Source: Anolis carolinensis (Eukaryota). Taken from it: DNA of 64,000 nucleotides. Every line of letters starts with the position of its first letter. The stretch's first letter is position 1. A program made the position numbers and the translations under genes. The stretch covers positions 7,706,317 to 7,770,316 of the forward strand of contig NW_026943824.1 of the NCBI RefSeq assembly GCF_035594765.1. Reading direction: 5' to 3'. The notes under the pieces were generated by a model. It did not search any database and was not told where the DNA came from. It saw only the letters and a list, made by a program, of their open reading frames with translations. This document shows positions 4,370 to 7,140 of this stretch, piece by piece.

Positions 4370-7140
4370 ACAACTCCCAGGCCTTGGGAATTGTAGTTCC
4401 CAGCCCTTGGGAGTTATAGTTTCTTAATGAAATAGACTCCTTTCTGCACTGCCCAGGCTTCCCAGCTTGAGGACAGTCGATCAGCTTGTTTGGGTCGAGT
4501 GTACTACAACTCCCAGCCCTTGGGAGTTATAGTTTCCTAATGTAATTGACTCCTTTCTGCACTGCCCAGGCTTCCCAGCTTGAAGACAGTCGATCAGCTT
4601 GCCTGGGTCGAGTGTACTACAATTCCCAGCCCTTGGGAGTTATAGTTTCTTAATTGTAATTGACTCCTTTCTGCACTACCCCGGCTTCCCAGCTTGAGGA
4701 CAGTCGATCAGTTTGTTTGAGTCGGGTGTACTACAATTCCCAACCCTTGGGAGTTATAGTTTCCTGATGTAATTGACTCCTTTCTGCACTGCCCAGGCTT
4801 CCCAGCTTGAAGACAGTCGATCAGCTTGCCTGGGTCGAGTGTACTACAATCCCCAGCCCTTGGGAGTTATAGTTTCTTAATGAAATAGACTCCTTTCTGC
4901 ACTGCCCAGGCTTCCCAGTTTGAGGACAGTCGATCAGTTTGTTTGGGTCAAGTGTACTACAACTCCCAGCCCTTGGGAGTTATAGTTTCCCCCATTTCAT
5001 GGGCTCCTTTCTGCACTGCCCAGGCTTCCCAGCTTAAGGACAGTCGATCAGCTTGTTTGGGTCGAGTGTACTACAATCCCCAGCCCTTGGGAGTTATAGT
5101 TTCCTAATGTAATTGACTCCTTTCTGCACTACCCAGGCTTCCCAGCTTGAGGACAGTCGATCAAGTTGTTTGGGTCGGGTGTATTACAATTCCCAGCCCT
5201 TGGGAGTTATAGTTTCCCCATTTAATAGACTCCTTTCTGCACTACCCAGGCTTCCCAGCTTGAGGACAGTCGATCAGCTTGTTTGGGTCGAGTGTACTAC
5301 AATTCCCAGCCCTTGGGAGTTATAGTTTCCTAATGTAATTGACTCCTTTCTGCACTGCCCAGGCTTCCCAGCTTGAGGACAGTCGATCAGCTTGCCTGGG
5401 TCGAGTGTACTACAATTCCCAGCCCTTGGGAGTTATAGTTTCTTAATGTAATGGACTCCTTTCTGCACTGCCCAGGCTTCCCAGCTTAAGGACAGTCGAT
5501 CAGTTTGTTTGGGTCGAGTGTACTATAATTCCCAGCCCTTGGGAGTTATAGTTTCTTAATGAAATAGACTCCTTTCTGCACTGCCCAGGCTTCCCAGTTT
5601 GAGGACAGTCGATCAGTTTGTTTGGGTCAAGTGTACTACAACTCCCAGCCCTTGGGAGTTATAGTTTCCCCCATTTCATGGGCTCCTTTCTGCACTGCCC
5701 AGGCTTCCCAGCTTAAGGACAGTCGATCAGCTTGTTTGGGTCGAGTGTACTACAATCCCCAGCCCTTGGGAGTTATAGTTTCCTAATGTAATTGACTCCT
5801 TTCTGCACTACCCAGGCTTCCCAGCTTGAGGACAGTCGATCAAGTTGTTTGGGTCGGGTGTATTACAATTCCCAGCCCTTGGGAGTTATAGTTTCCCCAT
5901 TTAATAGACTCCTTTCTGCACTACCCAGGCTTCCCAGCTTGAGGACAGTCGATCAGCTTGTTTGGGTCGAGTGTACTACAATTCCCAGCCCTTGGGAGTT
6001 ATAGTTTCCTAATGTAATTGACTCCTTTCTGCACTGCCCAGGCTTCCCAGCTTGAGGACAGTCGATCAGCTTGCCTGGGTCGAGTGTACTACAATTCCCA
6101 GCCCTTGGGAGTTATAGTTTCTTAATGTAATGGACTCCTTTCTGCACTGCCCAGGCTTCCCAGCTTAAGGACAGTCGATCAGTTTGTTTGGGTCGAGTGT
6201 ACTATAATTCCCAGCCCTTGGGAGTTATAGTTTCTTAATGAAATAGACTCCTTTCTGCACTGCCCAGGCTTCCCAGCTTGAGGACAGTCGATCAGCTTGC
6301 TTGGTTCGAGTGTACTACAATTCCCAGCCCTTGGGAGTTATTGTTTCCTAATGTAATGGACTCCTTTCTGCACTGCCCAGGCTTCCCAGCTTGAGGACAG
6401 TCGATCAGCTTGTTTGGGTCGGGTGTATTACAATTCCCAGCCCTTGGGAGTTATAGTTTCCCCCATTTAATAGACTCCTTTCTGCACTACCCAGGCTTCC
6501 CAGCTTGAGGACAGAAGATCAGCTTGCTTGGGTCGAGTGTACTACAATTCCCAGCCCTTGGGAGTTATACTTTCCTAATGTAATAGATTCCTTTCTGCAC
6601 TGCCCAGTTTTCCCAGCTTAAGGACAGTCGATCAGCTTGTTTGGGTCGAGTGTACTACAACTCCCAGCCCTTGGGAGTTATAGTTTCCCAATGTAATGGA
6701 CTCCTTTCTGCTCTACCCAGGCTTCCCAGCTTGAGGACAGTCGATCAGCTTGTTTGGGTCGAGTGTACTACAATCCCCAGCCCTTGGGAATTATAGTTTC
6801 CCCCCATTTAATTGACTCTCTCCACAACCCAGGCTTCCCAGCTTGAGGACAGTTGGCCAGCCTGTTTGGGATGGGTGTATTACAACTCCCAGCCCTTGGG
6901 AGGTATAGTTTCCCCCATTTAATGGACCCCTTTCTGCACTACCCAGGCTTCCCAGCTTGAGGACAGTCAGCCAGCCTGTTTGGGATGGGTGTATTACAAC
7001 TCCCAGCCCTTGGGAGGTATAGTTTCCCCCATTTAATGGACCCCTTTCTGCACTACCCAGGCTTCCCAGCTTGAGGACAGTCAATCGGCTTGTTTGGGTC
7101 GAGTGTACTACAATTCCCAGCCCTTGGGAGTTATAGTTCT
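4370..7140. repeat. ~113-bp tandem satellite (~24 copies) between the PARN and ECI1 start sites
   Basis: Unit ACTACAATTCCCAGCCCTTGGGAGTTATAGTTTC...GACTCCTTTCTGCACTGCCCAGGCTTCCCAGCTTGAGGACAGTCGATCAGC...; the CCCAGCCC/CCCAACCC anchor recurs at 4512, 4625, 4739 and 4852. A 679-bp (6-unit) block is duplicated. Confidence 0.97.

What the first reader, a model, noticed from the sequence alone, without database searches (positions are those of the whole stretch)
4370..7140. Satellite of paired ZNF143/THAP11-type motifs splits the PARN-ECI1 divergent promoter
Seen: PARN (ATG 4034, minus) and ECI1 (ATG 7285, plus) are head-to-head, and almost all the DNA between their CpG-rich starts is ~24 copies of a 113-bp unit. 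Each unit carries an inverted pair, ACTACAATTCCCAGC...TGGGAGTTATAGT. Known: ACTACAnnTCCCA is the ZNF143/THAP11(Ronin)-HCFC1 motif enriched at vertebrate bidirectional housekeeping promoters. Inference: up to ~48 sites could form a copy-number-tunable promoter array, or a transcription-factor sink, controlling both genes. Caveat: the same motif is common in squamate transposon debris elsewhere in this window.
Basis: partly seen in the sequence, partly recalled or inferred. Interest (0 to 1): 0.7.

Follow-up and report, generated by a model that had tools for sequence, protein, structure and literature searches.

The report
Minisatellite inside PARN-ECI1 promoter
A 2.7-kb run of 24 head-to-tail 113-base repeats lies between two back-to-back housekeeping genes of a lizard-type genome; it likely grew from a small promoter hairpin, fails the ZNF143 site consensus, and is probably a near-neutral spacer, since its THAP11-type motif already occurs over 66,000 times in this genome.

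Summary
The array is real: 4397-7138, 113 bp x 24.2, 90% matches, found at this one locus, between PARN (minus) and ECI1 (plus). The interpretation needs cutting back. The arms are THAP11/M4-type (43 exact M4, only 14 exact ACTACANNTCCCA); all 50 arms miss the ZNF143 consensus by 8-10 positions. ACTACAANTCCCA has 66,495 exact genomic copies against 249 for the control, so a sink of about 45 sites is negligible. Unrelated arrays carry the motif too: 5 of 89 others sampled, one with 62 or more perfect sites. The array is CpG-poor (o/e 0.26) with a deamination signature (4 of 4 CpG bases vs 14 of 51, P=0.009). PARN keeps its own CpG-island core at about 4126-4290. Contigs of an RNA-like run hint that RNA runs from about 4212 through the array towards ECI1. 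Best reading: a locally amplified, polymorphic promoter minisatellite acting mostly as a spacer; at most its edge units act, chiefly on ECI1. New member of a known kind; modest interest.

The parts
2755..2832 (-). PARN coding exon 2
   Evidence: PDB match to PARN E 5e-9; joined to exon 1 in an RNA contig
4016..4125 (-). PARN exon 1 (ATG at 4034); spliced RNA contig reaches 4125 (a contig end is not a start site)
3880..4300 (.). CpG island on the PARN side (GC 0.63, CpG o/e 0.73; 1.1 for 4034-4260)
4126..4211 (.). Likely divergent core: CRE palindrome at 4147, NRF1-like palindrome at 4180 (motif names recalled), CpG o/e 1.27; uncovered between two contigs of RNA-like run X6
4262..4286 (-). Best composite THAP11+ZNF143-type site, outside the array: exact ACTACANNTCCCA running into an SBS match with 4 mismatches
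4366..4420 (.). Left edge: three motif arms with a 23-bp duplication; strong DNA hairpin (z -4.4); likely remnant of the seed
4397..7138 (+). Minisatellite, 113 bp x 24.2; each unit has an inverted M4 pair 5 nt apart; 18 distinct units of 23; CpG o/e 0.26
4852..6276 (+). Recent six-unit (679 bp) duplication; 746 bp exactly identical
7107..7137 (.). Last motif pair, 148 bp before the ECI1 ATG; spliced ECI1 contigs of X6 and X17 reach back to 7109
7138..7190 (+). Right flank resembling the tail of edge unit u21 (4 of 2000 shuffles) but not of core unit u7 (255 of 2000)
7285..7349 (+). ECI1 coding exon 1; next exons 10405-10523 and 11227 onward

Best explanation
This is a single-locus 113-bp minisatellite between PARN and ECI1 that likely grew by local tandem duplication from a small THAP11/M4-motif hairpin in a once compact two-way promoter, and it probably acts mainly as a near-neutral spacer. 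Shown: array, genes, one locus only, M4-type arms, failed ZNF143 consensus, CpG-poor interior, six-unit duplication, flanks that resemble the edge units. Inferred: unequal exchange or slippage multiplied the seed; the interior is methylated in the germline; PARN fires from the CpG-island core at about 4126-4290, which the array does not enter; most ECI1 mRNA starts near the right end of the array, where only the last unit or two sit at promoter distance; a weaker plus-strand RNA starts near 4212 and crosses the array. Without the ZNF143 half, interior arms are predicted to be occupied no more than the other ~66,000 repeat-borne copies.
For: One locus: all 13 DNA matches and all 12 pattern matches lie in the array; a non-motif 17-mer has 18 of 21 matches in it and 3 scattered one-mismatch hits. 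Edge units match the flanks, core units do not (right 4 vs 255, left 12 vs 1497 of 2000 shuffles). SBS mismatches 8-10 in 50 of 50 arms; PMC3627581 says ZNF143 does not bind the THAP11 site alone and that THAP11 sites in vivo always overlap a ZNF143 site (passages); review PMC7154149 relays that ACTACA guides THAP11/HCF-1 to ZNF143-occupied loci (passages). 66,495 copies vs 249 control. Arrays cover 10-22% of sampled DNA on C15 and C17, with 23 in the 283-kb neighbourhood; 5 of 89 other arrays carry M4, one with at least 62 perfect sites. CpG deamination variants at 4 of 4 CpG bases vs 14 of 51 other C/G (P=0.009). In run X13, whose contig carries a Tn5-type end (identification recalled, library not on record), the array is no more covered than a dispersed repeat (0.32 vs 0.42 of run X1) while the flanks are (14.8-27.4 vs 8-9): a weak hint.
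Against: THAP11's domain binds ACTACAATTCCCA alone in vitro (PMC3627581) and M4 needs only ACTAYR for THAP11/HCF-1 pull-down (PMC5006282, passages), so 43 exact M4 arms beside open promoters could be bound. The reverse arm is exact M4 in 24 places, and arm columns vary a little less than the rest (8 of 26 vs 41 of 87; not tested for significance). M4-bearing arrays are mildly enriched (5 vs 1.4 expected, P=0.015; but 2 of 67 vs 0.9 outside the neighbourhood). A THAP11 orthologue with a conserved DNA-binding domain is present. RNA-like contigs cover the array, so it is not silent. The CpG test rests on four bases. No binding, accessibility or expression data were tested directly, and no related genome was available.
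Confidence: 0.6

Rival explanations
1. Copy-number-tuned cis array: THAP11/HCFC1 binds many M4 arms cooperatively, without ZNF143, and sets ECI1 (less so PARN) output by unit number.
For: 43 exact M4 arms directly between two starts; THAP11 binds the site alone in vitro; unit order differs between individuals (five substitutions at 4424-4434 on the junction contig of X1); promoter VNTRs do modulate genes (163 eVNTRs of 10,264 VNTRs, abstract of PMC8024321).
Against: No ZNF143 half; CpG-poor with a deamination signature; no enrichment over a dispersed repeat in run X13 (weak); motif-bearing arrays also occur in an intron and between genes (27389-27990, 52393-53772).
Confidence: 0.17
2. Read-through attenuator: the plus-strand arm of the divergent core starts near 4212; the array lengthened its leader by 2.7 kb, so these RNAs carry about 32 upstream ATGs and 24 hairpins, give little protein and may dampen the ECI1 start at the right edge.
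For: Run X6 has spliced PARN and ECI1 contigs and no intron cover, yet covers 4212-4371 (depth 4.5), array units (a 372-nt contig at 7.6) and 7109-7349 (34). Array depth X6/X1 0.16 vs 0.007 for a dispersed repeat; X17 0.043 vs 0.014. 32 ATGs lie between 4212 and 7284, 12 of them start-stop.
Confidence: 0.13
3. The unit is a decayed transposon piece that inserted in the promoter and then amplified, so the motif was never a promoter element.
For: Inverted motif pairs are the core of a palindromic MITE with 8-bp target duplication (35094-35217, 7 of 8; L101, 8 of 8); 310 exact pairs genome-wide; the 79-bp array at 52393 starts from MITE-like sequence.
Against: Outside the arms the unit matches nothing elsewhere; no MITE ends were seen at the array edges; the 5-nt spacing differs from the MITE's 34 nt, and short-spaced exact pairs gave only 6 matches. 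This changes the origin, not the predicted function.
Confidence: 0.07
4. Transcription-factor sink acting in trans.
For: High local site density.
Against: About 45 sites against 66,495 exact copies, under 0.1%; a larger array of perfect sites lies on the same contig (L039).
Confidence: 0.02
5. Assembly artefact.
For: The 746-bp exact duplication could be a mis-join of six units.
Against: Head-to-tail joints in 4 of 4 runs from four studies; 18 distinct units. Only the exact copy number is in doubt.
Confidence: 0.01

Closest known systems
Promoter VNTRs / eVNTRs (e.g. human PDYN 68-bp VNTR with an AP-1-like site, PMC8201134 passages; eVNTR survey PMC8024321 abstract)
   Same: Single-locus tandem array next to a start site, with a factor motif in each unit and variation among individuals.
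   Different: Much longer (2.7 kb, 24 units vs 1-5 for PDYN), sits between two head-to-head genes; no expression link shown here.
M4 / THAP11 (Ronin)-HCFC1 site and ZNF143 SBS2 (PMC3627581, PMC5006282)
   Same: ACTAYRNNNCCCR matched exactly 43 times; located at a divergent housekeeping promoter.
   Different: SBS 3' half absent in all 50 arms; arms are inverted 5 nt apart and overlap where ZNF143 would bind; array is CpG-poor; genome holds 66,495 mostly non-promoter copies.
Tandem repeats arising from MITEs and other transposon debris (search listing only: PMC12628747, PMC9659126, PMC6947457)
   Same: The genome has a palindromic hAT-type MITE with the same inverted motif pair and other arrays built on such debris.
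   Different: This unit has no dispersed relatives outside its arms and its edges blend into the local flanks.

Membership tests
ZNF143 site (SBS1/SBS2) | 18-bp YWCCCRNMATSCMYYRCR core following CCC | tested here: not met
   8-10 mismatches in 50 of 50 arms; consensus from PMC5006282; a consensus test, not a weight matrix
THAP11 site / M4 | ACTAYRNNNCCCR (strict form ACTACANNTCCCA) | tested here: met
   43 exact M4, 14 exact strict form in 4360-7140
THAP11 site / M4 | In vivo overlap with a ZNF143 site | tested here: not met
   criterion from PMC3627581 discussion passage
THAP11 site / M4 | THAP11 gene present in the genome | tested here: met
   L165 matches THAP11 domain 2lau at E 6e-50; C-terminal coding part is interrupted by a GT-AG insert whose splicing was not tested
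THAP11 site / M4 | Occupancy by THAP11/HCFC1 in cells | not testable with these tools
   needs ChIP or CUT&Tag
Bidirectional CpG-island promoter | Head-to-head genes | tested here: met
Bidirectional CpG-island promoter | Starts within about 1 kb on one CpG island (criterion recalled) | tested here: not met
   ATGs 3.25 kb apart, array o/e 0.26; about 0.5 kb apart if the array is subtracted
Promoter VNTR (eVNTR) | Single-locus tandem array of 10-100+ bp units near a start | tested here: met
Promoter VNTR (eVNTR) | Copy number varies among individuals | tested here: inconclusive
   unit variants and order differ in contigs of other runs; contig depth gives no copy number
Promoter VNTR (eVNTR) | Length associated with expression | not testable with these tools
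   needs genotypes with matched RNA
MITE-derived tandem repeat | Unit homologous to a dispersed element, with terminal repeats or target duplication at the array ends | tested here: not met
   only the motif arms match elsewhere; the DNA search skips very common words, so old debris is not excluded

The most novel reading that the evidence does not exclude
A minisatellite expanded inside the leader of the plus-strand arm of a two-way promoter and split ECI1 control in two: a long, uORF-laden RNA from the PARN-side core crosses 24 THAP11-type hairpins, and unit number tunes the ECI1 start at the right edge, through ZNF143-independent THAP11/HCFC1 loading or read-through. This would be a length-variable dial on a fatty-acid oxidation gene, in a genome where the THAP11 motif has been spread 66,000-fold by repeats.
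Probability: 0.13. Interest if true: 0.62.

Novelty: new member of a known kind. Interest (0 to 1): 0.3.

Why it matters
As it stands it is one more promoter minisatellite in a genome whose small chromosomes are 2-22% such arrays. It would matter if unit number changed ECI1 output: a natural dose series of THAP11-only sites would test whether THAP11/HCFC1 can load without ZNF143, a point on which the mammalian papers read here differ. The wider fact, 66,495 exact THAP11-type motifs mostly in repeats, raises the question of how this factor finds its promoters in such a genome; I found no paper on it in my searches, which cover open-licence texts only.

Tried and rejected
Dispersed satellite family: rejected, one locus; a second 113-bp array on C1 (L032) has an unrelated unit. 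Special folding of the whole unit: not above shuffles (z -0.8 and -0.5); only the left edge is (z -4.4). Higher copy number from contig depth in X1 (summed 690-765 vs 8-9): rejected, overlapping short contigs inflate the sum and the tool gives no copy number. Run search: no holder is on record as RNA; all 20 holders are one organism label, which says nothing on other species. X20 (guessed RNA) runs into PARN intron 1 and was not used as RNA evidence. Motif as a seed of tandem arrays: weak (5 of 89 vs 1.4; 2 of 67 vs 0.9 on grid samples). Breakpoint idea (PARN next to ECI1 differs from the human order, recalled): untested, no related genome, no paper found. Earlier findings of the scan: three look-ups, nothing shown. 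Vinckevicius 2015 is not held; known only through review PMC7154149. Literature searches without a relevant hit. No supplements were read. No weight-matrix scan was run; consensus strings from the papers were used.

Full report
Observation. Tandem Repeats Finder reports 4397-7138, period 113, 24.2 copies, 90% matches. Splitting at the motif gives 24 units of 112-114 bp, the last one partial; 18 of 23 full units are distinct and mean pairwise identity is 0.90. A 746-bp stretch from 4852 recurs exactly 679 bp on, a six-unit duplication. PARN is on the minus strand with ATG at 4034 and ECI1 on the plus strand with ATG at 7285. Head-to-tail joints occur in contigs of all 4 runs laid. The genome is 1.85 Gb in 211 contigs; its repeats resemble those of anole lizards (recalled, from no call).

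The motif. Each unit holds two inverted arms 5 nt apart. In 4360-7140, 43 arms match M4 (ACTAYRNNNCCCR, from PMC5006282) exactly, 24 on minus and 19 on plus; 14 match ACTACANNTCCCA exactly, because the reverse arm reads ACTATA. Anchored on CCC, all 50 arms with up to one M4 mismatch differ from the ZNF143 consensus YWCCCRNMATSCMYYRCR at 8-10 positions. PMC3627581 (passages) reports that the ZNF143 domain does not bind the THAP11 site alone, that THAP11's domain does, and that THAP11 sites in vivo always overlap a ZNF143 site. So the arms are THAP11/M4-type only. The best composite site lies outside the array at 4262-4286 (4 SBS mismatches). A THAP11 orthologue is present.

Genomic background. 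ACTACAANTCCCA has 66,495 exact copies against 249 for the reversed control. Of 53 copies sampled outside this array and L039, 2 lie in CpG-island-like DNA, one being the 4274 site; the rest fall in several repeat contexts. A palindromic MITE with an 8-bp target duplication carries an inverted pair (35094-35217, L101), with 310 exact pairs genome-wide. Of 11 loci examined, nine chosen for motif hits and two as flanks, 8 held motif-bearing tandem arrays with unrelated units of 24-273 bp. In 100 evenly spaced 10-kb samples plus the 283-kb neighbourhood, arrays covered 0.5% (C1), 1.6-2.8% (C10-C12), 10-12% (C15) and 22% (C17); 5 of 89 other arrays carried M4 against 1.4 expected (P=0.015), 2 of 67 against 0.9 without the neighbourhood. 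One, L039, has 62 perfect sites and runs off the sample. A motif-bearing array is therefore not rare here, and a sink of about 45 sites is negligible.

Origin. The unit is confined to this locus. Both flanks resemble the diverged edge unit u21 (4 and 12 of 2000 shuffles) but not core unit u7 (255 and 1497). The left edge has three arms and folds strongly (z -4.4), while a whole unit does not. I infer local amplification of a promoter segment with a motif hairpin. Whether that hairpin was a native element or old transposon debris cannot be settled without related genomes.

Chromatin clues. CpG o/e is 1.1 at 4034-4260, 0.26 in the array and 0.50-0.58 at the ECI1 start. All 4 CpG bases of the consensus show C>T or G>A variants against 14 of 51 other C/G (P=0.009), which suggests germline methylation on small numbers. 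Run X13 has a Tn5-type loose end (identification recalled; library not on record); its array depth relative to X1 is 0.32, a dispersed repeat 0.42, and the flanks 14.8-27.4 against 8-9. This is a weak hint that the array is less open than the two starts; copy number and allele effects could give the same.

RNA clues, against an inert array. Run X6 has spliced contigs for PARN (to 4125) and ECI1 (back to 7109) and no cover of either first intron. It also covers 4212-4371 at depth 4.5, leaves 4126-4211 uncovered, and holds array contigs, one of 372 nt at depth 7.6. Array depth relative to X1 is 0.16 against 0.007 for a dispersed repeat; X17, same study, gives 0.043 against 0.014. The uncovered 86 bp hold CRE and NRF1-like palindromes (names recalled) at CpG o/e 1.27. 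This fits a divergent core at 4126-4211 with weak plus-strand RNA crossing the array, which has 32 ATGs before the ECI1 ATG. Contigs show no strand, start or level, and the evidence is from one study, so it is a hint.

Mechanism. Most likely (0.6) the array is a spacer that pushed apart the halves of a promoter once about 0.5 kb long; PARN uses the CpG-island core, ECI1 mostly starts near the right edge, and interior arms are not specially bound. Rivals: THAP11-only cis dosage (0.17), read-through attenuation (0.13), decayed transposon seed (0.07), sink (0.02), artefact (0.01).

Known kinds. It works like a promoter VNTR (PMC8201134 passages; PMC8024321 abstract) and meets the structural test; length variation is inconclusive and an expression link untested. 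It is not a ZNF143 site array. I found no paper on this locus or on this motif in lizard repeats (open-licence library only; no supplements read). Papers seen: PMC3627581, PMC5006282, PMC7154149, PMC8201134 as passages; PMC8024321 as abstract and outline; the reviews as a search listing only.

Verdict. Real feature, interpretation partly supported, new member of a known kind, interest 0.3; most novel reading 0.13 likely, 0.62 if true.

Noticed in passing
L165 / L173 (G000:C11:18625048-18627260): The THAP11 orthologue is interrupted inside its coiled coil by a ~1.4-kb repeat-rich insert that begins GT, ends AG and is flanked by a ~10-bp near-duplication; coding resumes in frame. It looks like an intron gained by an insertion (mammalian THAP11 is recalled as intronless), and the insert carries the THAP11-type motif itself. 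Splicing was not tested.
   Followed up: partly
G000, genome-wide: ACTACAANTCCCA occurs 66,495 times, about 270-fold above the reversed control, in several unrelated repeat families and tandem arrays.
   Followed up: partly
L039:2834-10000 (G000:C15:1.50 Mb): A 116-bp array of at least 62 units, 97% matches, each with a perfect THAP11-type site.
   Followed up: no
window 27389-27990 and 52393-53772: Two more motif-bearing arrays (150 bp x 4; 79 bp x 17.5), the second starting from MITE-like sequence.
   Followed up: partly
window 35094-35217; partial copy near 2990-3068: Palindromic ~124-bp MITE with an 8-bp target duplication (7 of 8), hAT-like; internal inverted motif pair.
   Followed up: partly
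window 25188-33172 and 42141-42395 (minus); 57890-61417 (plus): Two DNase I-type genes follow ECI1, then INTS15. PARN next to ECI1 and INTS15 nearby differ from the human order (recalled).
   Followed up: partly
window 3076-3834, 7839-8780, 9137-9778: The first introns of both genes also hold minisatellites (91/182, 51 and 52 bp) without the motif.
   Followed up: no
window 3991 and 4126: Contigs of runs X1 and X13 share loose ends here (up to 168-252 nt at 4126): another allele or a similar locus elsewhere.
   Followed up: no
window 16150-16362: Perfect 101-bp inverted repeat, 11 nt apart, in an ECI1 intron.
   Followed up: no
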